The position numbers and the translations under genes are program-made. Under the pieces are notes generated by a model that had not been told where the DNA came from, searched no databases, and worked only from the letters and a program-made list of their open reading frames with translations. From an uncultured Methanosarcinales archaeon (GTDB lineage Archaea > Nanobdellota > Nanobdellia > Woesearchaeales > JACPBV01), in assembly GCA_964618315.1 (NCBI GenBank), contig CAZTWQ010000005.1, positions 1 to 63,638 of the forward strand: a stretch of DNA of 63,638 bases, in the 5' to 3' direction. Positions 1 to 59,850 of this stretch are shown here, one piece after another (within the stretch, counting starts at the first letter, position 1; each line of letters opens with the position of its first letter).

Positions 1-455
1 GAAGCATGCAAAACATGAACTGGTCAAACAACGCAAACTTCTACAGAATGTTCTACTCAGCAACAGCATTTAATGGGAATGTGAGTAATTGGTATCTCGG
101 AGATGTCTCAACAGGAATGCAAGAAATGTTCCAATCAGCAACTGCATTCAACCAACCATTAACTAACTGGGATACATCAAAAGTAACAAGTATGAATGCT
201 ATGTTAAGAGGAACTTCTTTTGACCAAAATTTAGGAAATCTAAATGTTTCAGGGGTTACAGATTTTACCAACATGCTTTATCTTACACAAATATCAACAA
301 CCAATTATGACAATTTACTAACAGGTTGGGCAGCATTAGATACTCTGAGTTCATCAGAGGCATTTCATGCAGGAACTGCCACATATTGTTTAGGAGAAAG
401 TGCCAGAAATGACACATTAATTGATACATATAGTTGGACTATTACTGATGGAGGA
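1..455 (+). repeat. End of a DUF285/BspA-like surface-protein repeat tract (MFxxAxAFNxxxxxW units) with its capping motif
   Basis: MFYSATAFNGNVSNW, MFQSATAFNQPLTNWDTSKVTSM, then NYDNLLTGW...WTITDGG. Confidence 0.85.
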
Positions 456-6400: not shown

Positions 6401-9400
6401 AAATAGTACAGTAGTACAGTTTACACTAGATACTACTGCCCCTGTGATATCAAACTTAAGAAATACTTCAACTACAAATCAAAGTTCATTCATAGAATGG
6501 TCTTGTAATGAAGCATGTAATTATACTATATTGTGGTATAATTCAACAGATTTAGTTGGAACGATAAATAATAATACATTTGCTACTTCACATAATCCTT
6601 TCTTAAGCTCATTAGTGAACTCAACAACATATATTGTGAACCTTACTGTTTATGATAATATGGGTAGTTCTACTGTCAATAATACGTTTAACTTTACTAC
6701 TGATAAAAATGAGATAATAGTTGATTCAATACCACCATATTATGATAACTTTGCGAATAATGGTTCTACACTGACAAAGATAAGTGGTGTTGTGAATTGG
6801 AGCATAGACTTATCTGATGGTGTTGGGTTGAATAGTTATTATTTTGCGCATAACCAGACTGGAACATTATCGAATCAGACCCTTAAATCGTTATCTGGAG
6901 AAAGTCAATCTGTAAATGAAACTTTGGCAATAACATTGACTCGTGGGAATTATATCTGTGGTCAGTTCTGGTTTGATGATGCAAATGGTAATGTTAATAG
7001 TACATTACTTACTGAATCTGGTGCTTGCTTTACTGTTGCAAATACTGCACCAATTACACCTACGATATATTATCCTGTAAGTGGTGGGAATTATAGTGAT
7101 ATTCCATATATTAACTATTCAAGTAGTGATGCTGATGGTGATTCATTAACTTATAATGTTTATATTAATGGAAGCTTGAATGTAAGTACTTCTGTGAATA
7201 TAACAGATTGGAATGCTTCAGATGGTTATTATAATTTGACAGTTAGTGCTTCAGATGGTATTGATAGTTCGGCTAATTCGAGCGTAGTAGAATTCAGGTT
7301 GGATACAATACAGCCTTCATTTAGTGGAAATAAAGATAATGCTTCATCTACAACCTATAATGGAACTGATGTGCAGTTGAATCTGACTATAAGTGATGAT
7401 GTTGGGTTGAGTAATTATAGGTTAACTACTAATGATACTTCAGATGGAGTATGGGTTAACCAAACTCTAAATTCAGTAAACGGAGCGACTTCAGTAACTG
7501 CTATCTTCAACTACTCAATACATAACTTCTCAATACTAGGTGGTACCCTTGGATGGAGAGTATGGGGTAATGATTCTGCTGGAAATGTAAACGAATCAGA
7601 AACTTACACCTTAACAGTTCAATCAAATGATAATATAAACCCTAATTCAAACATAACAATAAACAACACGCAACCAAAGATAAACGACATAGTAAATATT
7701 TCCCTAAACGTATCAGACAACATAGCATTAAGCTCCTGCTGGTTCTACAACAATATGTCTAAGCAAAACTCTTCAGCAATAAGCATTTCAGGAACATCAG
7801 ATCATGATACATGCTTTAATGTAACAACAATAAATGTTTCACAAGGCAAACAAGTATTATTCATAGGCTATGTCAATGACACCGGTGGAAACCTAAACTC
7901 TTCACAAACAACAATAACGGTTGCTAATACAGCCCCTATAACTCCTAGTGTGAGTTATCCAGTTAGTGGTGTAAATTATACTGATATTCCTTATATCAAT
8001 TATTCTTCAACAGATGCAGATAGTGATAGTCTGACTTATAATGTTTATATCAATGGAACATTAAATATATCTGGAATAAGCACAAATGTAACTGATTGGA
8101 ACGCTTCGGATGGTTATTATAATTTGACTGTATCTGTTTCTGATGGAAGTGATAGTTCTGCTAATTCTAGTGTAGTAGAGTTCAGGTTGGATACAATAGA
8201 ACCTTCATTTAGCTCTAACCAAACAAATGCTTCAGCTACTACTTATAATGGGACTGATGTGCAGTTGAACTTAACTATGAGTGATGGTGTTGGGTTGAGT
8301 TATTATAGGTTAACTACTAATGATACTTCTGATGGAAGTTGGGTTAACCAAACATTAACAACTGCAAACGGAGCAACTTCTGTAGGGGCTATCTTCAACT
8401 ACTCAATACATAATTTCTCAATAATAGGTGGGACATTAGGATGGAAGGTATGGGGTAATGATTCTGCAGGTAATGTAAACGAATCTCAGGTATTTACTTT
8501 AACAATTCAATCGAATGACAACACTAATCCACAATCAAACATAACAATTAACAACACTTCGCCAAAGATAAATGATGTAGTGAATATTTCAATGAATGTA
8601 TCTGATAATGGAGCTTTAGATTATTGCTGGTTCTACAACAATATGTCTAAGCAAAACTCTTCAATAATAAGCTTGTCTGGAACATCGGATCATAGCCTAT
8701 GCTACAACACAACAACAATAAACTTAACACAAGGTAAAAACATATTATTCATAGGCTATGTAAATGACACAACAGGAAACTTAAATTCTTCAAGAACTAC
8801 AATAACAGTAGCTAATACAGCACCGACAACGCCTACTGTTATTTATCCTGTTAGTGGTGGAAATTATACTGATATTCCTTATATTAATTATTCTTCGTCT
8901 GATGCAGATGGTGATAGTCTGACTTATAATGTTTATATTAATGGGAGTTTGAATGTAAGTAGTTCTGTGAATATAACTGATTGGAATGCTTCAGATGGTT
9001 ATTATAATCTGACTGTTTCTGCTTCTGATGGAATGGATAGTTCTGCTAATTCCAGTTCTGTGTTGTTTAAGCTGGATAGTACTGATCCAAGTGTGAATAT
9101 TATCTATCCATCTGATGATCTTAATGTTTCTTCTAATTCCATTGACTTTAATGCTACTGCGAGTGATGGTCTGGCTTCTTCGCTTACTTATTATTGGATT
9201 GTGAATGGAACATTGAACAGTACATCTGTTGATAGCAATAGTACGTTTAATGCAAGTGATGGATATTATAATTTAACATTGCTTGTGTCTGATGGACTAA
9301 ATAATGGGTCTGATACTGTGTTGTTTGCTTTGGATACTACTGCGCCTTTAGTATCAATCACAACCCCATTAGATGATACAATTGCTGGATGGAATGTGTT

Positions 9401-12400
9401 ATTGCAAGCTGAGATTACTGACCTTACTTCTGTTGTAAGTGCTAGTTATCAGATCAGGAATGGTACTTTGAGTGATGCTATAATCTATAATGGAAGTCTT
9501 GGGTTGTTGAGTGAGGATGTTTATAATGCTACGTTTGCTACTAATGAGACTTGGCCTTATAGTAATAGCTTGTTGAATAGTACTAATCTGACTTTGGTTG
9601 TGATTGCTAATGATACTCTTGGGAATGAGGCAAATGCTTCTACTTACTTTGTGCTTGATAATTCTAAGCCAGGAATCCAGTATGTTACGCCACTTGCTAC
9701 GGGTGAGTTTGTCAATGAGAACTTTAGTTTGAGTGTTTACTTGAGCAATCATAAGTTGAACTATAGTTTTGTGAATATTTCTTTAGATGGCGTTACTGCT
9801 TATTATAATTCTACTAGTTTAGATGTTGGTACTTATTATTGGACTGATCTTGTTAATGTTACTGGGTTAAGTGAAGGGAATTATAGCGTATCTGTGTATG
9901 CTAATGATACTCAGGGTAATAATAGAACTACATCAAGTTGGTTCTATGTTGATAAGACTGCTCCGAATGCTTCTCTTGCAGGTAGTGTTGGTGGGTGGGT
10001 TAATCCTACACCTGATAATGGTACGTTTACTAATGTTGTATTGCAGATATTTAATATGAGCTGTAATGAAACTATAAGTTCTATTAATGATGTTTGGATC
10101 AACTTGAGCAATGGAACTAAGTATAGTACTGAATCTGGGTCTTCTGGTGTGTATTATTGGTTTAGTGTTTCTTTGAATGAGGGTTCATACAATTATACTG
10201 GTTATTGTAATGATTCTGTTGGTAATCTGGGTAGTACTGAAACTAGGGGGTTGACTGTTGATACGACTTACCCAACATGGCAAGACAACAAGACAAACCT
10301 TACTTCATCAACACCATCTGGAAGCACAGTTTACTTTAATATCACCTTAAATAGCTCAAACCCAGATAAATACATCTTCAGCTGGTATAATGGCAGTGAT
10401 TGGGTAAATGATACTCCAACCAGCTATACAAACGGCCAAGAGATAGAAGTCTTGAAAAACATAAGCATAAGCTCAGGAGATATAAATTGGACAGGGTATT
10501 TCAACGATACTGCTGGTAATATGAATCAGACAGATGTTTGGAGCATAACAATCCTATCATCCTCAATCAGCCTGTCTATGATTTATCCAACTGCAAACAT
10601 CAATGTAACACAAAATGAATTCTTCAATGTGACTGCTCAGGTCTGCTGTTATGATAGTGATTGTGGTGAAATCAATACTACATTAAGCCTAAACGGCACT
10701 TTAAACTATACCAATACTACCGGCCTGATAACACAGGATTCTGATTTAGGCAATGATACTATTGCTGCAAGTGTTGAAAATGCACCTGATGAATCAAAAG
10801 AAGATGCATTTGACCAAAACACTGGTACAAAATGGCTTACATTGAATGAAAATACTGGATGGATAATCATAGAATTAGGAAATGGCGCACAAAGGATGTG
10901 GAAATATGAGATCTGCAGTGCTAATGACGCATCAACAAGAGATCCAGATAACTGGATTATTGAAGGTAGTATTGATAATTCCTCATGGGCGGTCCTAGAT
11001 ACAGTAATAAGCAATGGCCAGTTTGCAAGCAGAGAAACATGTTATACTTTCTATCCAGATTCTATAGGCAGCTACAAATATTATAAGATGAATGTAACTC
11101 AGAATAATGGCGCTGAGCATATGCAGATGTCTGAGATTAAATTTTACCAACAAAACAGCACCCGTGATCCTGTGATATCAGAGGATTCAGGAACTCCTTT
11201 CTATACAAATGTTACAAATCCGTATAATATGAGTTTATCTAAAGATGAGTGTTCAAACATCACATGGTTCTTAAATGCAACAGGAAGCACAGGTAGCAAG
11301 AATCCTATCTTTGCATATGCAAATAAGACTTCTAATATGAAAATATCAAATATTACCAGCAGTTTTAACATCACAATACTTGAATGTCTTGTAGATGGAG
11401 ATTGTTCAGGAGATAATAACTGTTTATCTGGAACATGTACAGCCCCTCCAGATATAATCTTCCCTAGCATAAGCTTTAGTTTACCGACACCTACAAATGC
11501 AACATCACAGGCAGAAAATAATGTAGAGATCAATATAACAATAAATGAAACTAACCTTGATACGATCAAATACAATTGGAACGGAACAAACTATACTATG
11601 TACAATGACTCTTTGGTACTATTGATGAATTTTGATAATATGAGTGAATTGGGAGAGAACAATACTTATGCAGTAGATATAAGCAGTTATGGAAATGATG
11701 CAGTTATAGATGGTCCAACCTGGAACTCAAGCGGAAAGTATGGTGGTACATTTGAATTTGATGGTGTTGATGATTTCATAAACATATCAGATGACTCAAG
11801 CCTCGATGTAACAAATGAATTGACTATAATGTTCTGGATAAAAGGAACAAATCCTGCTGATTATTCTGCAATACCTATTGCACATGGAACATATGGAGAT
11901 TCATTCTGGTTTGAATTATATAATTTAGATACAGGTATGCAATTTTATGTTAATATAGATGGTGTAGGGGCAAGAGGAAACAATAACAAATTCAATATAT
12001 CTTCTGATACATGGACACACGTTACAGGTACATTTGATGGACAATATATTAGAGTATATGTAAATGGAACATTATATGACAGTAAAGCTCAAGCTGGTTC
12101 AATAGCAGTAAGCAATACTCCATTATATATGGGATTAAGTGATGGAGACACTTGGGGGGGACATTATTTTAATGGGAGTTTAGATGAAGTGATGATATGG
12201 AACATAAGTTTATCAGATGATGAGATCTATTCTCATTATATCTCAAGCCTAAAGAAGGTTGGCACAGACAGCTGGGAGCTTTATGTCAATCAGAGCAAGA
12301 ATGCTACTGATGGTTTAAGTGATGGAGATTATACTTATCAGGCATTTGCTAAAGATGATGCTGGGAATTTAAATTATACTGAAACGAGGACTGTGATAAT

Positions 12401-15400
12401 AAATACAACAGATACTACATTGCCGACATATACAAATCTTGCTAATAATGGATCTACTGTAACTAGAGTTAATGGTGTTGTGAATTGGTCTGTGACTTTG
12501 GCGGATGATATTGGGTTGAGCAATTATTACTTTGCGCATAACCAAACAGGTACGCTTGAGAACCAGAGCCTTAAGATATTAAGCGAGGATTCTCAGTTTG
12601 TGAATGAGACTTTATCTATTACATTAACACAGGGGAATTATGTATGTGGACAGTATTGGTTCAATGATACTAGTAATAATGTTAATCAGACAGGGTTGAG
12701 CTGCTTTACTGTTGCTAATAGTGCTCCTGCTGTGCCTAGTGTGATTTATCCAGTAGATGGTAATAATTATACTGATATTCCATATATCAATTATTCTTCA
12801 TCTGATGCTGATGCTGATTCGTTGACTTATAATGTTTATATTAATGGTAGTTTGAATGTAAGTAGTTCTGTGAATATTACTTCATGGAATGCTTCTGATG
12901 GTTATTATAATCTGACTGTATCGGCTTCTGATGGGATTAATAGTTCTGCTAATTCCAGTTCTGTGTTGTTTAAGTTGGATAGTACTGCTCCAAGTGTGGA
13001 TGTTGTTTATCCATCTGATGGGCTTAATGTTTCATCTAATTCCATTGACTTTAATGCTACTGCAAGTGATGGTCTGGCTTCTTCGCTTACTTATTATTGG
13101 ATTGTGAATGGTACTTTGAACAGTACATCTGTTGATAGCAATAGTACGTTTAATGCTAGTGATGGATATTATAATTTGACCTTGTTTGTGTCTGATGGGC
13201 TTAATAATGGGTCTGATACTGTGATGTTTGCTTTGGATACTACTGCACCGTTAGTATCGATTGCAACTCCACTAGATGATACTATTGCTGGATGGAATGT
13301 GCTGCTGCAAGCAAGTATTAGTGATATGATTTCATTAGATGGTGTGACATTTGAGATTAGGAATGGTACTTTGAGTGATGCTATAATCTATAATGGAAGT
13401 CTTGGGTTGTTGAGTGAGGATGTTTATAATGCTACGTTTGCTACTAATGAGACTTGGCCTTATAGTAATAGCTTGTTGAATAGTACTAATCTGACTTTGG
13501 TTGTGATTGCTAATGATACTCTTGGGAATGAGGCAAATGCTTCTACTTACTTTGTGCTTGATAATTCTAAGCCAGGAATCCAGTATGTTACGCCACTTGC
13601 TACGGGTGAGTTTGTCAATGAGAACTTTAGTTTGAGTGTTTACTTGAGCAATCATAAGTTGAACTATAGTTTTGTGAATATTTCTTTAGATGGCGTTACT
13701 GCTTATTATAATTCTACTAGTTTAGATGTTGGTACTTATTATTGGACTGATCTTGTTAATGTTACTGGGTTAAGTGAAGGGAATTATACAATTAGTGTTT
13801 ATGCTAATGATACTCAAAGCAATAATAGGACTACTACTTCTTGGTTCTATGTTGATAAGACTGCTCCGAATGCTTCTCTTGCTGGTAGTGTTGGTGGTTG
13901 GGTTTCTCCTACACCTGATAATGGTACAATAACTAGCACAACTACACAAACATTTAATATGAGTTGTAATGAAACAATTAGTTCTATCAACTCTGTATGG
14001 ATTAATTTGAGTAATGGAACTTCATACAACACAGAAACAGGATCTTCAGGAGTATATTATTGGTTTAATCTTACCTTAAATGATGGTACATATAACTACA
14101 CAGGTTATTGTAATGACACTGCAGGAAATCTAGCCAGTACTGAAACTAGGATTTTAACCATCGATCTAACAGCCCCAAGATGGCAGGATGATAAAACTAA
14201 TTTAACCTCATTAACAACAAACGGAAGCATGGTCTACTTCAACATAACCCTTAATGAATCAAGACCAAACAAATATGTATTCAGCTGGTATAATACAAGT
14301 GTTTGGGTTAATGATAGTGCAACTTCTTATACTGATGGACAAGAAGTAAGCATAACTAAACAAGTAAATTCTTCTTCGGGAACCCTAAAATGGACCTGGT
14401 ACGTAAATGACACAGCAGGCAACCTAAACCAAACAGATATTTGGAGTGTTGCACTTGCTGGCACTGAATCTTTCATAGGTCTAGAATGGATTTATCCAAC
14501 ATCAAATATAAACGTAACTCAAAATAGGTTCTTCAACGTAACTGTGAATGTAAGCTGTTCTGGTGGCAATTGCGGTGAGGTAAATGTAACCCTAGATCCT
14601 ATTGCTTATACAGTATACAACTTCACAACCTGTGGGCAAACAGGGCAAACAGGTCCTAACCAAAGCCAGTGCAATGTTAATTATTCTGGAACAACCCTAG
14701 AAGGTCTTGTAAATGTAAGTGGTGGAATCCAAAACTGGACAGTTCCAACAACAGGAGATTACATAATTGAAACATCAGGAGCTGCAGGAGGTGGCAGTTT
14801 TGGAAACTCGGCTAATGGTGGATTAGGTACAAAAATTATTGGAACTTTTTCACTTACCAAAGGGGAGGTTCTTCAGATTGTTGTAGGTCAGAAAGGTGGC
14901 AGAGGAGGATATTCAGGTGCAGATGCTGGCATGACTAGTGGTGCTGGCGGTGGAGGCGGTGGAGGTACATTTGTATATACTCTAGATTATGGTGCTGGCG
15001 GAGAGTACCCATTAATTGTTGCTGGCGGTGGAGGCGGAGCTGAGGCTATTGTTGGACGTAATGCTTCAATAACTATAAATGGTACAGCTTCTGTTGGTGG
15101 AGACGTTGCTGGTGCTGGAGGAACAAACGGTACACACGGTTTGATTGGTGACCAGACTAATGGTAACTATCATGGTGGTCCAGGTGCAGGTTGGAAGTCA
15201 AGAAATACCTATAGAAAAACAACAGACCATGGAGAAGGAGGATATTCCTATGCTGGAAACTGGACAGGGGGAGACACAGGTGCGGACAATCCAGAAGCAA
15301 TTGGTGGATTTGGTGGTGGTGGTGGTGCTTCTGAACATAGTGGTGCAGCAGGTGGTGGTAGTGGATATTCTGGTGGAGGTGCTAGTCGTCAAGCAAGTAG

Positions 15401-18400
15401 TGCTGCAGGTGGTGGTGGTGGCTCATATAATAATGGAACTAATCAGAACAATACTGTAGGGGTAATTTTAGAAAGTGGATATGTAAGCATAAAAATAGAA
15501 TCCGCTAAAACAGGCAAAGTTTCAACAACTACTGGAGCAACACCATTCTACACAAATGTAACTAATCCATACAATGTAACCCTAGATGAAGACCAATATA
15601 GTTTAATAACATGGTATGTAAATGCAACAGGTAATGTAGAAACCACCCATGAATTCTTTGTATATGCAAACAGAACAGCTAATATGTCAGTTAGTAATAT
15701 AACGTCTAAATGGAATGTTACAATTATTGAACTAGACATTTATCCACCTACATGGTACAATAACAAAACTAATTTAACATCCACTACAACAATTGGAAGT
15801 GAAATTTACTTTAATATAACGGTAAATGACACATACCCAGAGAAATATATCTTTAGCTTCTATAACGGAAGCGTTTGGATGAATGATACAGCAGCTTCCT
15901 ATATAAGCGGTCAAGAACTATCTGTTATTAAATCAATAAATTCAAACCCAATCCGTTGGAAATGGTACTTTAATGATACTGAAGGTAATTTAAATCAGAC
16001 AGATGAATGGGCTGTAATCCTTGCCTCTTCTATTGGTATATCTTTAATATCTCCAAGTGGAAATATGAATGCTACACAGAATAGAACTTTCAATGTTACT
16101 GTTAATGTAAGTTGCACAAGCAGTGTTCCTTGCGGAGAGATAAATGTTACTCTGGATCCTGCTGCAGTTGGCACTGTTTATAATTTTACAAGCTGTGGGG
16201 CAACAGGAAGATATGGGCCTTCACAAGCTAATTGTACTGCTAATTATAGTGGAACAACGTTAGAAAATTTAGTAACTGTTGGTGGAGGAATACAAAATTG
16301 GACAGTACCTTCAACTGGAACTTATAGGATTACAGTAGCAGGTGCTAAAGGTGGTGGCAATAACAATGCTGGTAATGGTTCAATAGTACGTGGGGATTTC
16401 TCATTGATAGAGGGGCAGATATTGAAAATCTTAGTTGGACAACAAGGAGGTTATGAAGTGTCTGGTAGTGGTGGTGGTGGAACTTTTGTAGTCAATGTAT
16501 CTAATGACCCTATAATTATCGGAGGGGGAGGGGGGGGACAATATAATACAGTATCAATATTGCTTAATGCGCAGGGGAGGACAGAAACTTCTGGTGGAAA
16601 TACTGTTAGTCGTACTGGTGGAATAAACGGTTTAGGTGGTAGTGGAGGTACTTGTGCTGGTGGTGGCGGACTTATTGGTAATGGTGGGACAGCTTCTTAT
16701 GGTACCCCTGGACTTTCATTTATAAATGGTGGAGTTGGTGGAGATCATTCATCTTATGCTCAATGCATTGGTGGATTTGGTGGTGGCGCTGGTACACATG
16801 GAAATACTGGTGGTGGCGCTGGCGCTGGCGGTTACTCTGGAGGAGCAGGAAGTGATCAATCAACGTCAGATGCTGGTGGTGGTGGTGGTTCTTATATTAG
16901 CGTTGAAGCAACAAATGTTGTAACTTCTGATGGTATGTTTAATGGTTCATCTACATTTAATTCTATAGCTATCACTAATTTAAGTTCTAGGAATCCAAAT
17001 CATGGGTATGTTACCTTTGAAGTTATAAGTACAGAAGGTAAAAGTGGAGTAATCTCAACACTTACCAATGAGACACCATTCTGGACAAATATGACTAGTA
17101 ATCCATATAACATATCATTAAGCAGTGGAGAAAGTCAAATTGTTACATTCTGGGTAAATGCAACTGGTGGGGTGGATGTTACTCATAACTTCTATGTTTA
17201 TGCAAACCAGACATCTCAAATGTCAACATCCAACCAAACAACGAAATGGAATGTTACAATTATTGAGCCAGACACTTCAGGTCCAGCATGGTCAAATAAT
17301 AAAACAAATCTTAATTTATCAACAACTCTTGGAAGTACAGTTTACTTTAATATAACTGTATCTGATGCAAATCCTGATAAATATATATTTAGTTTCTATA
17401 ATGGTAGTGTTTGGTCGAATGATACATCAATTTCTTACACAAGTGGACAAGAACTATCTACTAATAGGTCAATAAATTCAAGTCCTATTAATTGGAAGTG
17501 GTATTTTAATGATACCGAAGGTAATGTAAACCAAACTGATGAATGGACTGTAAGTTTATCTTCTGATGTGGGCATTACTTTGATATACCCTACCTCAGAT
17601 ATAAACATCACTCAAAAGAAGGTTTTTAATTTCACTGTACTTGTTAATTGTACTGGCCAGGTAAACTGCGGAGAGATTAATGTTACTCTTGATAGTGAAA
17701 ATTCATTTATCTTGGATAACTTTGATACAGGGGAATTGGCGGGCGATTATTGGACTACTTCTAGTAGTACTGAAAATGGAAATATTACTGTAAGAACAGA
17801 GGTTGCAAATTCAGGAAGTTATTCAGTTATAGCTGACGTCAATGATGATGCAGGAGCTAACTTAAACCAATTGATAACAAATTATGACTTTTCAGGAAAT
17901 CATTATATATATTTAGATTTCTATTGGAGAGAAACAACTAATGACGAGACTCAACATACAGGATCAGACCATTCTGGAACTCAAAATGCAGATGCTGTTT
18001 ATTATACTTGTAATGGAACTTATTGGTATCACTTAGCAAGTGCGCCAGCTAGCTTTACTTCCTGGGAATATAAGGCAATTAATATAACTGCAGACTCTGA
18101 TTTCTGTAATACTACTACATCAAACTTTAAGATAAAATTCACCCAATATGATAATCTCGCATGGCCTGGTGATGGAATTGCATGGGACGATATTAATATT
18201 ACTTATAGTTCTGGAGGGGGAGGAATAATTTCAACAAATAGTAATGCATCACCTTTCTGGACTAATGTTTCAAATCCATATAGTATTACTTTGAATAAAG
18301 GAGAAAGCCAATTTGTTACATTCTGGGTAAATGCGACAGGAGCTGCCAATGAAACATTTAAGTTCTTTGCATCTGTTAATAGGACAGGTTTAATGTCAGA

Positions 18401-21400
18401 TTCTAATGTGACTGGCCAGATAAATGTTACAATTAAAGCTGCAGACTTTACTGCACCAACTTGGTCGAATAATAAAACGAATATTTCAAACAACTTTTCT
18501 ATTGGGGATACTGCTTACTTTAATATAACTTTGAGTGAACAAAACCCAGACAAATATATATTTAGTTTCTATAATGGAACTGATTGGGTAAATGATGCTC
18601 CTGCAAATTATACGACTGGTCAAGAGATTGAAGTAACTAAAATAATAAATTCAAGCCCAATACGTTGGAAATGGTATATTAATGATACTTCTGGAAACTT
18701 AAATACAACTGATGAATGGAGTGTTGTTTTGGATTCTGCAATAGGTATATCTCTTGTATATCCTAACGGAAATATGAATGCTACACAATACAATTTCTTT
18801 AATGTAACAGTTAATGTTAGCTGTACTGGTGCACTGCCTTGTAGGGAGATTAATGTTAGTTTAGATCCAGCCTCTTCAGACTGGGAAGTTATTATGTTTG
18901 ATGATTTTGAAGATGAAACTCAATGTTCAAATACTTGCGGGGTTACCTGTGCGCTTACAACTGGCAATTGGACTAATGTTGCAGGAGGTAATTGGGTCGT
19001 AGATGCAGGGGGTACTTCTTCTACCAGTACTGGTCCAACTTTAGACCATACACTGGGAACAACTTCAGGAAAATATCTCTATACTGAAGCTTCAAATCCT
19101 TGTTATAAAAATTATTCAATAATAAGTGCAGAAATTGATACTAGCCAATATGGTTTAATAAATTTAACTTTCTGGTATCACATGTATGGTTCAGCAATGG
19201 GTTCATTACATGTGGATGTTAATGAATCTGGTTCTTGGGTAATTGATGTGTGGAACATTTCAGGTCAACAACATACAGGATATACAGATAATTGGGATCA
19301 AGCTTCAGTTGATCTTTCATCTTATTCAGGAATGATCCATGTAAGAATAAGGGGGCTTACTTCTTCATCTACTTATGCCAGTGATATGGCTATAGATGAT
19401 ATAAATATTAATGGAACATCAGCGACCAGTGTAGGAAAAGGTGGTTTAATAAACACGACAGCAGGAGCAACACCATTCTACACAAACATGTCTACTAATC
19501 CTTATAATATCTCTTTACTTAGTGGAGAATCTCAATTAGTAACATTCTATGTTAATGCAACTGGAGATGGGAATAATAATTATACTTTCTTTGTGTATGC
19601 AAACCAAACTTCACAAATGTCAACTTCAAATATAACTGCTACATGGAATGTTACAATTAAAGATCTTACCATACCCACAATAAATTTGGTTTCACCAACA
19701 TTAGCAAACGGAACTTATTCACAAAACTTTATTGAGGTTAACGTCACATCAACTGATTCTCATCTGTCAACTATAGTTAATTATATGTACAATTCAACAG
19801 GGGGATTAGTTAGCTCTGAAAGTGGGACTTCTTCACCACATTATAAGAATTTCTCTAGTTTAAGTGATGGTGTATATTATGTTAATGCTAGCGCTACTGA
19901 TTCTGCAAGCAATGTAAATTCAACAGAAACAAGAAAGATAACATTAGACACTACACCTCCAAAAATAAGTTATTTATCTATAACACCTGTAAATGACACA
20001 AGACAGTCAGAACCTTATTTCGAGATAAATGTCTCAATAACAGAATCTTCCTTAAAAGAGGTAATATACGAATGGAACAACACTAATTACACTATGTATA
20101 ACTCTTCTTTGATCTTGATGTTTAACTTGGATAATGTTTCTTCTTTAGGTGAGAATAATACTTATGTTGTTGATATGAGTAAAAATGGAAATAATGGTAC
20201 AGCTTATAATGGAACAATTATAAATTCAACAGGCAGATATAGTGGTGGTGCACATTTTGATGGAGTTGATGATTATATCGACATAGGTTCAATTAATTTA
20301 TCGACTGACTTTAGTGTTGGTTTCTGGATGAAAGGCTATAAACTTTATGATTATGGTGATCCCTTGGGTTCTGAAAAAAGAATTAGCTTTGTCACTTATG
20401 CAGATGGTCACATGAACTATATTGTTGGTAATGGTACATGGGGAACTCCGGTAAATACAGGAGTAGGTGCCTTAACTACAAACACCTGGTACTATGTTAT
20501 TGGAACCTACGATGGAGCAACTTCAAAGTTATACATAGATGGAGAACTTAATGGTACAGCAGAAAATTCATTAGATATTGGATTGACAAACCTAACTATT
20601 GGAGCCAGATACACTAATGGGTCTATTTGGTATCCATTCAATGGTTCAATAGACGAAGTAAGAGTTTGGAACAGAAGTTTAAGTGCTGCTGAAGTCTACC
20701 AACAGTATGCAAGTAATTTGAATAAGTTCAATAGTTCACAATGGTACTTGTATGTTAATCAATCGTTGAATGCTACTGATACATTACTAGAGGGAAATTA
20801 TACTTACAATGCTTTTGCATCTGATACTATTTCTAATTGGAATAATTCAATAGAAAGAAGTATAATAATAGACTGGACACAAGCAACATTCACTAATTTC
20901 TCAAATCAAACATTTGAGCATTATGCTGGAGTAAGTTATGATATAAATGCAACTGATGAAAATAGCATAAACTGCTTTACTGTTAATGATACTGCAAGAT
21001 TTAGTATAAATTGTTCAGGATATCTTCAAAATAATACAGAATTAGGCAATGGATTATATTGGTTGAATATAACTGTCAATGATACGGCAAATAATAAATT
21101 TTCAGATTATATGTGGGTTAATATTACGGATACAACACCCCCTGTATTTACGAGCATAGGAAATGCTACACATGAATATGGAGACCAGTTTAGTTATAAT
21201 ATAAATGCAACTGATTCAAACAATATTAGCTGCGTTACTGTCAATGATACTACAAACTTTAAGATAAACTGTTCGGGATATCTTGAGAATAATACTTACT
21301 TAAGTGTTGATTTATATTGGCTTAACATTACAATTAATGATACAGTTGGAAATGTAAATTCAAGCATAATGGTTGTAAATGTTTCTGATACAACTAACCC

Positions 21401-24400
21401 TACAATAAACATAACTTACCCCATTAATAATACATACACAAATGATACCGGAATACACATAAACTACATTGCTTCTGATCTAAATCTAGATTCTTGTTGG
21501 TATAGCAACGATACTATGGGGGTTAACACCACCCTTGTAAGTTGTGCAAACATAACAACAGTAACATGGACAGAATCACCCCATAATATTACTGTTTGGG
21601 TAAATGATACTTATGGAAACATAAATAGTTCAACTATTGCCTTTACTGTTGATTTAACTGCACCAACATTCATAAACTTCACTAATCAAACAACCTTTGA
21701 AGAAGATACATTTATCTATGATATAAATGCATCAGACACAAGTCCATTAAGCTGCTTTACAGTTAATGACACAACAAACTTCAAGATAAACTGCACTGGT
21801 TATTTGGAAAATAATACTTACTTTAATCAAAGCAAAGTAGCTTTATATTGGCTTAACATTACAGTAAATGACTCTGCAGGAAACGAAAGATCAAACCTAA
21901 TGTGGGTAAATGTAACAGACAAAGGAAGAATTGGTTTGGAGTTGATAACTCCAACTGGAGATATTAATGCTACTCGAAATGCTTTATTCCAGGTTACTGT
22001 AAATGTAAGTTGTGTAGATAATGATTGTGGTGAAGTTAATGTTACATTGGATCCTGATGATACAATAGTATATAATTTCACAACATGCGGAGCAACAGAG
22101 AGACTAGGACCTTCAGAATCAGATTGTAATACTGATTACACAGACACAACCTTAGAGGGGCTTGTGAATGTTACTAGTGGAATCCAAAATTGGACTGTTC
22201 CAACTACAGGAACATATACAATTGAAGTTGCTGGTGCTAAGGGGGGGTGTGCTGGGGGGGCAGATGGTGCTAGGATGATTGGAGAGTTTGAATTAGTTAT
22301 GGGTGAAGTTTTACAAATTTTAGTTGGGCAAGAAGGGGGTTGTACTAGTTATGGTGGTGGTGGTGGTGGTACTTTTGTTGCTAATGGTTCTAATTATCCT
22401 GTTGCTGATCCTTTAATAGTTGCTGGTGGTGGTGGTGGAATGTCAAGTAGTGGAAGTGTAGCTCTTGGAGGTGTAGTTGGAATAAATGGAACTGATGGGC
22501 AAGATAAAGTTGGTAATAAGGGGGTAAATGGTTATGGGGGGCTTACAGGAGGATCTACTTATAGTGGGGCTGGAGGAGGAGGTTTTTATGGTGATGGGAC
22601 CTCTAGTAGTTATGGTGTAAAAGGAGATGGTTTTAGAAATGGGGGCACTGGAGGAACTTCTTCAGGATATGGTGTTGGAGGTTTTGGGGGCGGTGGTGGA
22701 AATGGATATTTCGGTGGTGGAGCAGCAGGAGGTTATTCTGGTGGTGGGGGTGGATATACTGATGGAGATGGTGGTGGGGGCGGAGGCTCTTATAATAACG
22801 GAACAAATCAGGACAATACTGCAGGAGTAATCTCAGGGGACGGATATGTAATCATAACCTATACTGAATTAGGTAAAGGAGGAACAGTCTCAACAGTTAG
22901 TGGAACAACACCATTCTGGACAAACACTACAAATCCATACAACATCTCACTAAACCAAGGTCAATCAGCACAAATAACTTGGTATGTAAACACAACTGGA
23001 ACCATAAACAACACTCATGAGTTCTTTGTATATGCAAACAGAACTTCAGATATGGGGATAAGTAATATTACACAAAAATGGAATGTGACCATCCAAAATG
23101 GAACTGAATTAATCCCACCAACCTTCACAGTAATCGCTAATCAAACAATAGAATATCTAGATGCATTAGGGTATGATATTGATGCAACTGATAGTACGGC
23201 AGTAGACTGCTTTACAGTAAACAACACAAACTTCACGATTAATTGTTCTGGTTACCTAGCAAATAATACTTTATTGAATGTCGGATTATACTGGCTTAAC
23301 ATTACTGTTAATGACACATTAGGAAATGAAAACTCCAATTTGATGTGGGTAAACGTCACAAATACTTCCATTCCAACTTTCACAGTAATTGCTAATCAAA
23401 CAATAGATTATGGTGTCGCTCTAAATTATGATATTAATGCAACCGATATTTCAAGTATAAGCTGCTTTACAGTAAATGATACAAATTTCAAAATAAATTG
23501 TACAGGGGGTCTAGAAAATAATACTTTATTAAATATCAATACATACTGGCTGAACATAACTGTTAATGATACTTTAGGAAATGAAAACTATAATCTGATG
23601 TTTGTGAATGTTACTCAAGATAGTGTTCTGCCTGGAGTCAATATAACTTATCCTTTGAATGGTACAGAATTTAATTGGACAACTACTTCAGTATATTTGA
23701 ATGTTACTACAACAGAAAATACAACTTGTTTCTATAGTACCGATTCTGGCCAGAATAATTACTCCATGACTGTAAACAATTCAGGCACTGGATTTAATGC
23801 ATCAATATCTACTTCGCCAGGAACTATATACACAGCTAATGTATATTGTAATGATACCAGTAATAATTGGAACAGGACAGAATCAGTTGTATTCTCATTA
23901 AATGTCCCTCCATCAATTGGATTAGAGATGATATATCCTACTTCTAATGTTAATGTATCTAAGAATGAATTCTTTAATGTTACTGTAAATGTAAGCTGTT
24001 CAGGAAGAGATTGTGGTGAGATAAATGTAAGCTTAGATCCAACAGTAACCACATCATTAACAGATTCCTGCTCATGCAGTTCTGCTGGATGTTCATGCAC
24101 CATAGATTTCAACCCAACAGAAACAATTACCTCTGCAACAATCTATCCTCAAGTAAGGGGTGACTTAGCTTCTTCTACCGAATATGTAACCTTAAAAGCA
24201 GATGGAACTACATTAGGAAACTGTTTAGGATCAGGAGACGACTGCTCATATGATACTTGCACTAGTTATGATGTAACATCTTACTTATCAGACAACTCAA
24301 TAACAATAACTTGCGACTCTACAACTGCAGTAAACTATGCCCCAAGCGGAGGTTGCGGTTATATGGGTTGTTATGTAAACCTAACTTATGAGTACAGTGC

Positions 24401-27400
24401 AGGAAAAGGTGGACTAATAAATACAACAGCAGGAGCAACACCTTTCTTTACAAATATAACTAACCCTTACAATTTAACCCTAAACGAAAACCAAAGCAGC
24501 CTATTAACTTGGTGGGTTAATTCAACTGGTAATCTAGACAGCACCTATGAGTTCTATATCTATGCAAATAAAACAGTTTCTGGAATACCAATAAATAATG
24601 AAACTTCTAAATGGAACGTTACAATAAAAGATTTAACTCCCCCTAAATTAAGCTTCAACTCAGATACAACTGCAAACGGTTCACATAATCTCCTAAGAAC
24701 AATAACTGTAAATGTATCCCCTTCTGATTTATATCTAGACACAACAACAATTTATATCTATAACGAATCTGCATTAATAAATTCATCAACCACCAATTAT
24801 CTGCAGCTCACTAACCTAACTTACGGAACATATTACATCAACGCCACTACAAATGACACATCCAGTAATATAAACAGCACAGTTACAAGAACAATTATAT
24901 TAAACAAGCCATCTATCTCAATATCTAGAGTTTGGCCAACAACAGATGTAAATGTTTCTCAAAATAGGTGGTTTAATGTAACTCTAAATATCACTTGTCT
25001 TGAACAGACTTGCGGAGATATAAATATAACTTTAGATCCAGTAGTAGAATGTGGAGACATTACAAACTGTGATTTTACTCAGACAGGAAATTGTAATAAT
25101 GAAGATAGTACATGCACTAATATACCTGGATGGACCTATGAAGAGATAACAGATAGTACAAGCGGATCTTATGAACAAGTTCAAGTTGCGACAAGTTCAA
25201 ATCCATTTGGAAGCAAAGGTAATTGGCTTCAATTTAAATCAACTTACACTGGATCTAGCAGCACAAGCTGGAAAGCCTATATCTTCTCAGATTCATTCAC
25301 AGCAAACGCAGATTACATAACTTATAATTTTGATGCAGAAGATTATGATGAATGGGGTTATGGCCTTATGATATATGAGGTAGGAAACGAATCAGGCAAC
25401 TATCAAAATCTAGAATCCAGATGCTCATATTCTGGAAGCTGGTCCTCATCTGATAATGTGTGGGGTGGCTGCAATGACAATAATGACTATAATCCAGCTG
25501 CAAAGATTGACAACACAGTTGCCATTAATGCTAATCTAAAGAATAAGGAAATCAGAATAAAAGTATGGACTGGAGATGGTGGGTCTGGAGATCACGGAAT
25601 AGCTTACCTTGATGACATCTGTTTATCAGATTCTGAAGGAACATGCATAAGTTCGGCAAAAGCAATAATCTCAACAATATCTGGAACAATACCATTCTGG
25701 ACAAATAAATCCTCAAATCCATACACAATAAACCTAAACAAGACCAACTCCAGCATAATTACATTTTATGTCAATGCAACTGGTACAAAAGAAAACACAT
25801 ATGAATTCTTTGCCTATGCAACAATAGCTAATGATACTTCTATCAGAAACGATACAACAAAATGGAATGTAACAATAACTGATGCAACAATCCCAATAGT
25901 ATCGTTCATTTCACCAACAACATCAAATGGAAATTATTCACAAACCCACATAGATGCAACAGTTTCAATAGATGACAACAACCCAGCTAATATCACAATA
26001 TATCTTTACAACTCAACTGCATTGGTGAATTCAACAACTTCCCCTTCAGCTCCAGAATCTTATTCAGTAAATTTCACAAACTTACCTGATGACACATACT
26101 ACTTAAATGCAACTGGCAGGGACACAGGCGATAACATAGACTCAACTGAAACAAGAACCATCAAGCTTGATACTGTCCCACCTGTAATCAATCTCTCTGC
26201 ACCTATTGACGGATTCAATACAAGTTCAACAAAACTTAATTTCACCTTTTCGGTAGAGGATAATTCAATAAGTAATTGTACATTATACAAAGATCTTGAA
26301 GGTTCTGTTGCTTATGTTGCAGTCAACTACAATTCTTCAGTATTGCCTGATGTTAATACAACATTAAATGGATCTGACTTCGCAAGCAGGCTAAATTCAT
26401 GGTATATCCAATGTGTAGATGCAGCAGGCAATACCAATACAAGCAGTATAAGGACCTTTACAGTTGATGCAACACCCCCTACAATAGTGGTTAATTCTCC
26501 AACAGTTAATGGCAGCTTCGGTTATCTTATCTATTTAAGGACAGAGATAACAGACACATTATCTTCAGTAGATTCTGCTTGGTATTATATGTACAATAAC
26601 TCAGATGCTAGCCAAAAGATAGCAAATGGCACGCTCAATAGTTCAGACAGTTGGGATTCAACATGGAACTCATCTATCTACGATAATGTAGAGTGGAATG
26701 TTACCTTCAGTATATTTGCCAATGACACATCCGGCAATCTAATAAACAAAAATATCTCATTCTACTTGGATAACTCAAATCCTGTAATCCAATTAATCGC
26801 CCCAACAGCAAATCTAAAGCACTATAACTCTAATTTCAGCCTTAACTTAGTAGTACAAGACCTTTCATTAAATTATACTTACTATAATCTAAGCAAATCA
26901 GGAACTACAGTTCAATACAACACAACAACCTATGAAACACCTATTAAAGAGCACACTTGGCAGGATCTTGTAAATGTAACACAAAACACAGAAGGCACAT
27001 ATAACCTGGTCGTTTATGGAAGAGATTCTATTGGAAATGATATAAATGTTTCAACAAACTTTATAATAGATAAGACTAGCCCTTCATTAACTATTGATTA
27101 TCCTTCAGAAAATTCATATCTCAACACAACATCGATAAACTTCAATTGGACAGCTATTGATAATATCTCAGAATCATTAGACTGTAATATCTCAGTAGCA
27201 GGCACTATAAAACAATTATATTGTACAAACAATACTGGATGTAATTATACATTCAGTGGATTCAGCGAAACAACATATGACTTTAATGTAAGCTGTAGTG
27301 ATAATGCCTCCAACAGTGTAACTACATCAAGCAACTTTACTATTGATACAACCATCCCCCTAATCTCATTTGTAGATCCAACAACTTCAGCTGGAAACCA

Positions 27401-59697: not shown

Positions 59698-59850
59698 ATG
59701 GTAAAAGTAGTTGTAAATAATGGACAGTATAAGATAACTATTCCGAAAGATATAGCGGAAGCTCACGGTTGGAGTTCTAAAACAAGATTAAGATTTGTAG
59801 AGGATAGTGAGGGGAATATAACACTAAAAGAGCTTAAAATTAAAAAATGA
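59698..59850 (+). CDS. AbrB/MazE/SpoVT-like swapped-hairpin DNA-binding protein (50 aa; not in the ORF track)
   Basis: MVKVVVNNGQYKITIPKDIAEAHGWSSKTRLRFVEDSEGNITLKELKIKK matches the GQ-x-x-I-T-I-P-K-x-I-x-x-x-x-G...L-x-F...I-x-L pattern; its stop overlaps the next ATG (ATGA). Confidence 0.8.
   Translation: MVKVVVNNGQYKITIPKDIAEAHGWSSKTRLRFVEDSEGNITLKELKIKK

What the first reader, a model, noticed from the sequence alone, without database searches (positions are those of the whole stretch)
10560..25880. Plug-in display scaffold: eight copies of one host domain, each carrying a cargo inserted at a conserved LDP junction
A conserved first half (GLxxIYPTxxINVTQNxFFNVTVNVSCxxxxCGEINVT-LDP) and second half (GKGGxIxTxxGxTPFxTNxxNPYNIxL...ITWxVNATG...FxxYAN...WNVTI) enclose six different kinds of insert. 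These are F5/8-like (10692-11160), Gly-rich (14601-15503, 16161-17036, 22056-22871), a jelly-roll of reelin/choice-of-anchor type (17697-18212), MAM (18870-19433), a Cys-rich P-domain-like unit (24042-24401) and a galactose-binding-like unit (25041-25655). The junction position is fixed (LDP at 14592, 16152, 18861, 22047, 24033, 25032; LDS at 17688; LSL at 10683). The N-terminal fragment also switches from conserved cassette to cargo right after VDP (62799-62807). This looks like a reusable socket for swapping binding domains by recombination in the conserved flanks, i.e. combinatorial adhesin diversification with no DGR machinery in the window. Asp-Pro is also a labile bond, so cargo release is a speculative possibility.
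Basis: partly seen in the sequence, partly recalled or inferred. Interest (0 to 1): 0.85.

Follow-up and report, generated by a model that had tools for sequence, protein, structure and literature searches.

The report
Split socket domains displaying swapped binding modules
A giant surface protein of a tiny symbiotic (DPANN) archaeon contains eight copies of one small beta-sandwich domain, each interrupted at the same loop by a different complete binding domain. This is an archaeal counterpart of the "split domains" that bacterial RTX adhesins use to hold out their ligand-binding modules.

Summary
One ORF (nt 6-43163, 14,385 aa) holds eight N-half/C-half pairs (HMM E 1e-19 to 1e-46). They enclose an F5/8-C-like unit, three ALK/LTK-type Gly-rich domains, MAM, a MAM-related unit and two unassigned units.

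The halves form one domain. A cargo-free splice is predicted as a single 9-strand sandwich (pLDDT 82, pTM 0.75) and matches macroglobulin (MG), CARDB and PapD-like domains over its whole length. Natural uninterrupted hosts also exist.

The family has about 1,155 representative proteins, almost all from DPANN archaea. Of 280 modules, 262 are interrupted (80-1016 aa) and 18 are not, with nothing in between. There are about 77 cargo sequence clusters. Exit "DP" is present in 247/262 interrupted and 0/18 uninterrupted hosts.

Syntenic hosts in homologous genes carry unrelated cargo, so cargo has been replaced in place.

Three claims are not supported:
- Ongoing recombination: host DNA is 55-73% identical and junction codons match background.
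- Asp-Pro cargo release.
- The VDP site at 62799 as a further socket.

The closest known kind is the RTX-adhesin split domain. I rate this a new variant of a known kind.

The parts
6..43163 (+). Giant ORF, 14,385 aa, probably truncated at its N-terminus by the window start. It begins in DUF285 repeats and holds many Ig-like domains, at least 7 Laminin_G_3 domains and the eight socket modules. It ends in a Cys-rich region, a TM helix and a Lys-rich tail.
   Evidence: sequon density 6.96 per 100 aa vs 2.77 expected
10560..10691 (+). Copy 1, host N-half (aa 3519-3562); junction is LSL, not LDP
   Evidence: HMM E 8e-29
10692..11159 (+). Copy 1 cargo, 156 aa, F5/8 type C-like (borderline)
   Evidence: PF22633 28.1 bits, PF00754 26.9 bits
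11160..11384 (+). Copy 1, host C-half (aa 3719-3793)
   Evidence: HMM E 5e-41
14469..14600 (+). Copy 2, host N-half, ends in LDP
   Evidence: HMM E 2e-31
14601..15503 (+). Copy 2 cargo, 301 aa, ALK/LTK-type glycine-rich domain
   Evidence: PF12810 25.9 bits vs cut-off 24.5; cargo cluster 1
15504..15731 (+). Copy 2, host C-half
   Evidence: HMM E 5e-46
16029..16160 (+). Copy 3, host N-half, ends in LDP
   Evidence: HMM E 2e-28
16161..17039 (+). Copy 3 cargo, 293 aa, ALK/LTK-type glycine-rich domain
   Evidence: PF12810 25.7 bits
17040..17267 (+). Copy 3, host C-half
   Evidence: HMM E 3e-44
17565..17696 (+). Copy 4, host N-half, ends in LDS
   Evidence: HMM E 4e-20
17697..18212 (+). Copy 4 cargo, 172 aa, all-beta with no Pfam hit. 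It is linked to MAM by transitive BLAST. It is conserved in L002, L003, L012 and L031. In P0013 it is nested in a LamG domain instead.
18213..18440 (+). Copy 4, host C-half
   Evidence: HMM E 4e-42
18735..18869 (+). Copy 5, host N-half, ends in LDP
   Evidence: HMM E 5e-29
18870..19436 (+). Copy 5 cargo, 189 aa, MAM domain
   Evidence: PF00629 78.7 bits
19437..19664 (+). Copy 5, host C-half
   Evidence: HMM E 9e-41
21924..22055 (+). Copy 6, host N-half, ends in LDP
   Evidence: HMM E 2e-29
22056..22874 (+). Copy 6 cargo, 273 aa, glycine-rich domain of the same cluster as copies 2 and 3
   Evidence: BLAST cluster 1; no Pfam hit on its own
22875..23099 (+). Copy 6, host C-half
   Evidence: HMM E 8e-43
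23913..24041 (+). Copy 7, host N-half, ends in LDP
   Evidence: HMM E 3e-30
24042..24404 (+). Copy 7 cargo, 121 aa, Cys-rich, fold unassigned; remote homologue in L031
24405..24632 (+). Copy 7, host C-half
   Evidence: HMM E 4e-41
24909..25040 (+). Copy 8, host N-half, ends in LDP
   Evidence: HMM E 2e-19
25041..25661 (+). Copy 8 cargo, 207 aa, Cys-framed beta-rich unit, unassigned; 67-77% identical in L002, L003, L031 and L033
25662..25883 (+). Copy 8, host C-half
   Evidence: HMM E 5e-26

Best explanation
The region encodes eight 'socket' modules of a giant archaeal surface protein that is membrane-anchored and probably heavily N-glycosylated.

Each socket is one Ig-like beta-sandwich of about 120 aa, with an MG/CARDB/PapD-like fold. 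Its chain leaves the domain after the fourth strand through the exit linker L-D-P. It then forms a complete, independently folding domain of 120-300 aa. It returns through the linker x-K-G/S-G and builds the remaining five strands.

The sockets sit in a long chain of ordinary Ig-like domains. Their cargo (lectin-like jelly-rolls, MAM, F5/8-C, ALK-type Gly-rich domains) therefore projects sideways from a fibre. I infer that this gives the cell a multivalent, multi-specific binding organ, most likely for attaching this DPANN episymbiont to host cells or glycans.

Over evolutionary time the cargo between the two linkers has been replaced many times, while the socket and its position in the gene were kept.

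What is shown: the split architecture, the fixed junction, the cargo diversity and in-place replacement. What is inferred: lateral display, adhesion, and the structural role of D-P and K-G-G.
For: - Eight strictly alternating N/C pairs occur in one frame.
- The spliced host is modelled as a single 9-strand domain: pLDDT 82, pTM 0.75.
- Its whole length (116-128 columns) aligns to single MG domains of C3/C4/C5/A2M (TM up to 0.67), to CARDB 2kl6 (TM 0.59/0.63) and to PapD-like domains.
- In a native-module model both halves keep pLDDT 82-93 and the same strand pattern.
- Natural uninterrupted hosts exist: 3 in the loci and 18 of 280 modules in representative proteins. No insert is 25-80 aa long.
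- N and C halves alternate across 121 in-frame pairs in 73 loci, 61 of them labelled as DPANN or unclassified archaea.
- The family holds 1,155 representative proteins.
- DP at exit: 247/262 interrupted vs 0/18 uninterrupted. K-x-G at return: 205/262 vs 0/18.
- There are about 43 cargo clusters in the loci and about 77 in the merged set. They include GRD, MAM, LamG, CBM96, fibrinogen-C, TNF, BclA-C, D8C and beta-propellers.
- Syntenic hosts carry unrelated cargo: GRD vs InhA-MAM, MAM vs fibrinogen-like, cl22 vs cl15. Their host halves are 51-73% identical.
- Surface location is supported by a C-terminal TM helix and 7 sequons per 100 aa, against about 0 in cytoplasmic neighbours.
- Bacterial RTX adhesins use the same display logic (PMC12077191; bioRxiv 10.1101/2025.09.30.679566).
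Against: - No coordinates or PAE were available, so packing of the N-half against the C-half is inferred from pTM, fold matches and natural uninterrupted hosts. It was not seen directly.
- The spliced model rests on 8 paralogues only.
- The native model is poor in the cargo (pLDDT 40-70, pTM 0.51).
- No binding data exist. Three of the six cargo kinds have no recognised family.
- Adhesion is an inference from domain types and from the lifestyle of relatives.
- The loci set and the representative set overlap in part (for example P0021 = L021 and P0024 = L038).
Confidence: 0.78

Rival explanations
1. The two halves are independent small domains that merely flank ordinary tandem domains. The chain would then be linear beads on a string with no nesting.
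For: The N-half ends in L-D-P, which resembles the L-D-x-x-x-P motif at the end of many ordinary Ig-like domains in this protein. In fragment P0006 a C-half follows what looks like an Ig-like domain.
Against: - An N-half of 43 aa and 4 strands is too small for a sandwich.
- The spliced host folds as one domain and matches single known domains end to end.
- Natural uninterrupted versions exist.
- Pairing is strict: only 6 orphan N-halves and 15 orphan C-halves occur beside 280 paired modules.
Confidence: 0.04
2. The sockets form an active diversification system. Cargo would be exchanged frequently, at strain or population level, by homologous recombination in the conserved flanks. That would give rapid switching of binding specificity.
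For: - Cargo differs at syntenic hosts.
- The nearest host relative carries the same cargo cluster in only 38 of 125 cases.
- The gene does hold recent duplications elsewhere: 99.8% identity over 540 nt and 92% over 1,140 nt.
Against: - Host halves share 55-73% DNA identity, and the longest exact match is 23 nt.
- Junction codons match background usage, so there is no DNA-level site.
- The rest of the window has no silent cassettes or DGR-like parts.
- The compared genes are only about 50-58% identical, so the swaps may be ancient.
- The only closer contig found was identical to L002.
Confidence: 0.08
3. The conserved Asp-Pro is a self-cleavage site that releases or activates the cargo.
For: D-P is tightly linked to the presence of cargo: 247/262 vs 0/18. 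Asp-Pro bonds are chemically labile, and some proteins self-process there (established knowledge: the FrpC self-processing module, GDPH in VWD domains).
Against: - There is only one D-P per module. The return linker has no second site, so cleavage cannot free the cargo.
- Residues after D-P vary with the cargo, whereas known modules need a conserved fold around the bond.
- Cl6-bearing hosts use LDS, LNT or LYS and copy 1 uses LSL, yet all keep cargo.
- D-P overall is not enriched in the protein: 22 found vs 27 expected.
Confidence: 0.04
4. The architecture is as described, but the protein is not a cell-cell adhesin. It could be a glycan- or particle-capturing coat, or a structural envelope component.
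For: Many cargo types are carbohydrate-binding folds (CBM96, LamG, F5/8-C, SusE/F-like). No partner is known.
Against: Relatives are DPANN archaea, a group generally regarded as episymbionts (PMC6349945, PMC7906910). MAM, TNF/C1q-like, fibrinogen-like and GRD domains are typical of protein or cell recognition (established knowledge).
Confidence: 0.15

Closest known systems
Split domains of bacterial RTX adhesins (MpIBP, FrhA, AhLap; Graham et al. 2024 Proteins 92:933, cited in PMC12077191; bioRxiv 10.1101/2025.09.30.679566)
   Same: - An Ig-like extender domain in a giant fibrillar surface protein is interrupted by a complete ligand-binding domain whose ends lie together, so that it projects off the fibre axis.
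- Several such pairs can occur per protein (up to six CBMs in one adhesin).
- Cargo types vary.
   Different: - This case is archaeal (DPANN), not Gram-negative.
- There is no retention module, RTX beta-roll or T1SS signal. The protein is anchored by a C-terminal TM helix.
- The host has an MG/CARDB-like fold and is split after strand 4 of 9. RTX hosts are split after the first strand or before the last two.
- The host is a single sequence family with conserved exit (LDP) and return (KGG) linkers, and it is interrupted in about 94% of its occurrences.
- The cargo range is much wider.
Macroglobulin (MG) domains of complement C3/C4/C5 and alpha-2-macroglobulin
   Same: - These are the best structural matches to the spliced host (TM 0.55-0.67 over about 120 columns).
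- That family also tolerates nesting: MG6 is split by the ANA/bait region and CUB is split by TED (established knowledge).
   Different: - No sequence similarity was detected.
- There is no thioester machinery.
- The nesting here is repeated, with interchangeable cargo.
CARDB domain (PF07705; for example PF1109 of Pyrococcus furiosus, PDB 2kl6)
   Same: The fold and size are the same (TM 0.59/0.63). Both are common in archaeal surface proteins.
   Different: No Pfam CARDB match at E <= 1. CARDB is not known as an obligately split host.
Nested domains of Gram-positive pilus tip adhesins (RrgA, GBS104)
   Same: A binding domain (vWA) is inserted in an Ig-like (CnaB) stalk domain (my own knowledge, not tested here).
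   Different: Those are single nestings with fixed cargo. They have isopeptide-bonded hosts and are assembled by sortase.

Membership tests
RTX-adhesin split-domain / ligand-binding-domain pair | A beta-sandwich extender is interrupted by a complete domain, and the two host segments form one fold | tested here: met
   Spliced model pLDDT 82, pTM 0.75; end-to-end fold matches; natural uninterrupted hosts
RTX-adhesin split-domain / ligand-binding-domain pair | Split point after the first strand or before the last two strands of a BIg extender (bioRxiv 10.1101/2025.09.30.679566) | tested here: not met
   The split comes after strand 4 of 9: N-half strands E2-8, E13-16, E20-29, E35-42
RTX-adhesin split-domain / ligand-binding-domain pair | The carrier is an RTX adhesin with an N-terminal retention module and a C-terminal RTX beta-roll plus T1SS signal | tested here: not met
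   No RTX or haemolysin-type repeats in Pfam scans of the whole ORF. The C-terminus is a TM helix with a Lys-rich tail. Relatives are archaeal.
RTX-adhesin split-domain / ligand-binding-domain pair | The projected domain binds a ligand | not testable with these tools
   Only domain-family inference is available (MAM, F5/8-C, GRD, LamG, CBM96 and others)
CARDB (PF07705) | Sequence match to the Pfam model above its gathering score | tested here: not met
   Four spliced hosts scanned at E <= 1 gave no CARDB hit, only weak Big_7, HYDIN-Ig and Cadherin-like hits
CARDB (PF07705) | CARDB-like fold | tested here: met
   2kl6 TMq 0.59, TMt 0.63
MG domain (A2M/complement) | MG fold | tested here: met
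   C5 5hcc TMq 0.67; A2ML1 7q1y 0.66; C4 0.64
MG domain (A2M/complement) | Sequence membership | tested here: not met
   No Pfam or PDB sequence hit
Diversity-generating retroelement target | Reverse transcriptase plus a template/variable repeat pair nearby | tested here: inconclusive
   By my reading of the translations, the other large ORFs of the window are ilv/leu genes, a transporter, a TrmB-like regulator and three unknowns with no Pfam RT hit. TR/VR pairs were not searched for specifically. Cargo differences are whole-domain replacements, not point hypervariation.
Asp-Pro self-processing module (FrpC type) / GDPH autocleavage | A conserved fold or sequence around and after the scissile D-P | tested here: not met
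   The sequence after D-P is cargo-specific and unrelated between modules
ALK/LTK glycine-rich domain (PF12810), cargo of copies 2, 3 and 6 | Pfam match above the gathering score | tested here: met
   25.9 and 25.7 bits vs 24.5 for copies 2 and 3. Copy 6 has no hit of its own and joins only by BLAST clustering.
MAM (PF00629), cargo of copy 5 | Pfam match above the gathering score | tested here: met
   78.7 bits vs 26.4
F5/8 type C, cargo of copy 1 | Pfam match above the gathering score | tested here: inconclusive
   PF22633 28.1 vs 27.8 (just above); PF00754 26.9 vs 28.2 (just below)

The most novel reading that the evidence does not exclude
The LDP...KGG socket may be a dedicated exchange site. 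On this reading, DPANN archaea swap whole recognition domains in and out of a fixed scaffold often enough (between strains or by transfer between genomes) to retarget their attachment organ. The socket's tolerance of about 77 unrelated cargo clusters of 80-1000 aa would then reflect a structural design (an Asp/Lys 'neck') that could serve as a general domain-insertion scaffold.
Probability: 0.2. Interest if true: 0.8.

Novelty: new variant of a known kind. Interest (0 to 1): 0.62.

Why it matters
DPANN archaea depend on other cells, but the molecules they use to recognise partners are largely unknown. Their giant surface proteins are mostly unannotated.

- **A recognition rule.** The pattern ...C-x-E-I-N-V-T-L-D-P [cargo] x-K-G-G-L-I-S-T..TPFYTN... 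picks out the likely ligand-binding domains in more than a thousand such proteins. It does for archaea what split domains now do for RTX adhesins.
- **Repertoire and convergence.** The cargo includes many domains better known from animal extracellular proteins: MAM, fibrinogen-C, TNF/C1q-like, ALK glycine-rich and uromodulin D8C. An archaeon and Gram-negative bacteria appear to have arrived at the same display solution independently.
- **Engineering.** This natural host accepts very many folds at one loop, so it is a candidate scaffold for domain-insertion work.

Tried and rejected
- **Host annotation.** Pfam, NCBIfam and PDB sequence searches with the spliced host and with cargos W4, W7 and W8 gave no assignment.
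- **Word-indexed protein search.** The host profile found only 11 short fragments. A second search with a full module found 5. That database holds few of these giant proteins. The exhaustive representative search was far more informative.
- **First genome scan.** A 3-sequence alignment worked.
- **Structure prediction with orthologues.** The native-module model therefore has a shallow alignment and a poor cargo. I did not run a fold search on it.
- **Strain-level comparison.** The metagenome scan gave one closer contig, and it was identical to L002. An exact look-up of the neighbouring ilvE gene found nothing.
- **Recombination signals.** Three tests were all negative or uninformative: DNA identity and exact matches between host copies, synonymous codon bias at the junction, and extra divergence of host halves next to swapped cargo.
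- **Rejected reading.** I considered the N-half as the tail of the preceding domain and rejected it (see rival 1).

Full report
**1. What is there**

The window carries one open reading frame from nt 6 to 43163 (14,385 aa, + strand). The finding covers aa 3519-8625 of it.

They find exactly eight N-halves (E 1e-19 to 1e-31). Each is followed 117-298 aa later by one C-half (E 1e-26 to 1e-46). Nothing comparable occurs elsewhere in the window.

The inserts are as follows:
- W1: an F5/8 type C-like unit, borderline in Pfam.
- W2, W3, W6: three ALK/LTK-type glycine-rich domains. Two are above the Pfam cut-off and the third joins by BLAST.
- W5: a MAM domain (78.7 bits).
- W4: a 172-aa all-beta unit that joins the MAM cluster only by transitive BLAST.
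- W7: a 121-aa Cys-rich unit, unassigned.
- W8: a 207-aa Cys-framed unit, unassigned.

The one exception is the VDP at 62799. It lies in a different ORF region that does not match the N-half model, and it precedes DUF285 repeats.

**2. One domain or two?**

Four lines of evidence point to one domain.

First, I joined the halves without cargo and aligned the eight copies. This gives a single compact 9-strand beta-sandwich: pLDDT 82, pTM 0.75, with four strands from the N-half and five from the C-half. Confidence is lowest at the artificial joint.

Second, that model aligns over its whole length (116-128 columns for 118 residues) to single domains:
- macroglobulin domains of C3/C4/C5/alpha-2-macroglobulin (TM up to 0.67);
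- the CARDB domain 2kl6 (TM 0.59/0.63);
- PapD/ASH-like domains.

There is no sequence-level membership in any Pfam, NCBIfam or PDB family.

Third, a model of native copy 4 with its cargo keeps pLDDT 82-93 and the same strand pattern in both halves. The cargo itself is poorly modelled because the alignment is shallow.

Fourth, and independent of modelling, natural uninterrupted hosts exist. Three are in the genomic loci. Eighteen of 280 modules in representative proteins are uninterrupted. Insert length is bimodal: 0-20 aa or 80-1016 aa, with nothing between. That is what whole-domain insertion into a loop predicts.

I could not inspect coordinates or PAE, so direct contact between the halves remains inferred.

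**3. How general is it?**

A scan of one genome per species found 73 loci. By record title, 28 are Woesearchaeota, 12 Pacearchaeota, 7 Nanoarchaeota and 14 unclassified archaea. Nine are labelled Methanosarcinales and three are on short contigs labelled bacterial. I suspect those 12 labels are mis-binning or mislabelling, but I did not test this.

In these loci N- and C-halves alternate strictly. There are 121 in-frame pairs, and 118 of them are interrupted.

An exhaustive profile search of 1.84 billion representative proteins gives 1,155 family members at E <= 1e-3 and 153 at E <= 1e-30. Most are thousands of residues long and hold up to six modules.

The junction is conserved well beyond this window:
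- LDP occurs at 106 of 117 junctions in the loci.
- DP is at the exit in 247 of 262 interrupted modules but in 0 of 18 uninterrupted ones (Fisher p about 1e-19).
- K-x-G is at the return in 205 of 262 interrupted modules and in 0 of 18 uninterrupted ones.

Exit and return linkers therefore come and go with the cargo. The strand that follows (L-I-S-T..G.TPFYTN) belongs to the host, because uninterrupted hosts keep it. Only 7 LDP tripeptides occur in the whole giant protein, and 6 of them are junctions.

**4. Cargo range**

The 125 cargos from the window and loci fall into 43 BLAST clusters. Merging with the representative proteins gives 387 cargos in 77 clusters, 39 of them singletons. The sets overlap in part, and the clustering slightly over-splits.

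Recognised families among the cargos:
- ALK_LTK_GRD (the commonest) and Gly_rich_2;
- MAM and InhA-like MAM;
- F5/8-C, Laminin_G_3 and CBM96;
- Fibrinogen_C, TNF and BclA_C;
- D8C_UMOD, DUF2341, SusE/F-like and GLUG;
- several beta-propellers (SBBP, NHL, SGL).

Most of these are binding modules whose N- and C-termini lie together (established knowledge for jelly-rolls and propellers). Nesting requires that.

One cargo, the W4 type, also occurs nested inside a Laminin_G_3 domain in an unrelated protein, P0013.

**5. Do homologous genes keep the same cargo?**

They do not. The window's gene is collinear with those of L002 and L003: 51% identity over 2,841 aa in one alignment. By position:

| Position | Window | L002 | L003 |
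|---|---|---|---|
| A | MAM-related cl6 | cl6 | cl6 |
| C | MAM | fibrinogen-like | fibrinogen-like |
| D | GRD | GRD | InhA-like MAM |
| E | Cys-rich cl22 | 157-aa jelly-roll-like cl15 | cl15 |
| F | cl7 | cl7 | cl7 |

Host halves at positions with different cargo are as similar (N 64%, C 62%) as at positions with the same cargo (55%, 59%). At position C they are 65-73% identical around unrelated cargo. The cargo was therefore replaced cleanly between the linkers and the socket stayed in place.

Across all modules, the most similar host carries the same cargo cluster in 38 of 125 cases, against 9 expected by chance. There is some inheritance of host and cargo as a unit, and a good deal of decoupling.

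**6. Mechanism of exchange**

I found no evidence for an ongoing recombination system:
- The eight host copies share 55-73% DNA identity. The longest exact match is 23 nt, and the three Gly-rich cargos are about 65% identical.
- By contrast, the same gene contains recent duplications elsewhere: 99.8% over 540 nt and 92% over 1,140 nt.
- Codon usage at L, D and P of the junction equals background. Conservation is therefore at protein level, not at a DNA site.
- The compared genes are only 50-58% identical, and no closer strain was available.

I conclude that cargo replacement is real but may be slow. Its mechanism is open.

**7. Asp-Pro**

The strict link between D-P and the presence of cargo needs an explanation. 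My inference is structural. Pro ends strand 4 and turns the chain out of the sheet. Asp, together with the conserved Lys of the return linker, may clasp the neck.

Cargo release by Asp-Pro cleavage is unlikely:
- The site exists on one side only.
- The sequence after it is cargo-specific.
- Some lineages keep their cargo with LDS, LNT, LYS or LSL.

**8. Context and function**

Features of the protein:
- It starts in DUF285 repeats.
- It holds many Ig-like domains (Big_13, BiPBP_C) and at least seven Laminin_G_3 domains.
- It ends in a Cys-rich region, a hydrophobic helix and a Lys-rich tail.
- It carries 7.0 N-x-S/T sequons per 100 aa. That compares with 2.8 expected from composition and about 0 in the neighbouring ilv/leu enzymes.

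This fits an extracellular, N-glycosylated archaeal protein. Relatives are DPANN archaea, generally regarded as episymbionts (PMC6349945, PMC7906910). I infer a fibrillar, multivalent attachment or recognition protein that holds its binding domains out sideways from socket domains.

**9. Comparison with what is known**

The same display logic has been described for bacterial RTX adhesins. [quoted passage not shown] 2024, as cited in PMC12077191; also PMC10865825 and bioRxiv 10.1101/2025.09.30.679566). In those adhesins the split is after the first strand or before the last two, and up to six CBMs occur in one adhesin.

The present case differs in several ways:
- the domain of life;
- the secretion and anchoring apparatus;
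- the host fold and the split point;
- a single conserved host family with fixed linkers that is interrupted in about 94% of occurrences;
- the breadth of cargo.

Full-text searches found no description of split domains in archaea. I therefore rate it a new variant of a known kind.

**10. Verdict**

The 'plug-in scaffold' reading is supported. The recombination mechanism and the Asp-Pro release idea are not. Interest is 0.62.

Noticed in passing
window aa 200-424, 598-828, 1176-1346, 1736-1906, 3856-4090, 6688-6913, 11210-11440 of the giant ORF (nt = 6+(aa-1)*3): There is a second kind of split host in the same protein. Seven Laminin_G_3 domains are each nested inside a different Ig-like domain (...YNWNGTNYTMYN [LamG] WYLYVNQS...). 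The spliced host aligns end to end with an uninterrupted neighbouring Ig-like domain (E 3e-11). The protein therefore displays at least 15 nested binding domains.
   Followed up: partly
window 1-300 and 59847-63638: The window ends inside an ORF that starts at 59847. That ORF has a TM segment near its N-terminus and finishes in DUF285 repeats. The giant ORF begins at nt 1-6 inside very similar DUF285 repeats. These may be the two ends of one still larger gene broken at a repeat (contig end or circular permutation), or two paralogous giant genes.
   Followed up: partly
window 6-43163: N-glycosylation sequons (N-x-S/T) occur at 6.96 per 100 aa, about 1,000 sites. Composition predicts 2.77, and the neighbouring cytoplasmic enzymes have about 0. 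Many sequons are conserved positions of the socket domain (NVT, NAT, NIT).
   Followed up: partly
window 3540-4079 vs 5220-5759; 8880-10019 vs 12783-13922: Recent segmental duplications lie inside the giant ORF (99.8% over 540 nt; 92% over 1,140 nt). The second pair lies just upstream of socket copies 1 and 2. Those two copies are themselves only about 65% identical and carry different cargo.
   Followed up: partly
P0013 (metagenomic protein, 520 aa): The W4-type cargo domain is nested inside a Laminin_G_3 domain in a protein whose N-terminus looks like an archaeal pilin-type signal peptide (my reading of the sequence, not tested). The same module is therefore used as an insert in a different host.
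   Followed up: no
window about 38000-41500 (aa about 12700-13800 of the giant ORF): A long run of Cys-rich repeats with C-x-D-G-x-D-N-D-x-D motifs (possibly metal- or calcium-binding) lies before the C-terminal anchor. It has no Pfam hit at E <= 1e-4.
   Followed up: no
window 44707-46938 (-) and 50609-51862 (-): Two sizeable ORFs (743 and 417 aa) among the ilv/leu genes have no Pfam match. By eye, the 743-aa one has a sigma-70-like opening segment.
   Followed up: no
window about 24000-38000: GC skew changes sign inside the giant ORF. It is positive up to about 24 kb and negative from about 24 to 38 kb. This probably reflects the amino-acid make-up of different repeat blocks, but I did not examine it.
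   Followed up: no
L001/L064 (Pacearchaeota Meg22_1012_Bin_283, contig of 62,754 nt), locus nt 9844-12960: A related giant gene there is broken by frameshifts exactly within socket modules (N-half in one frame, cargo plus C-half in another). This is either assembly error or a pseudogene.
   Followed up: no
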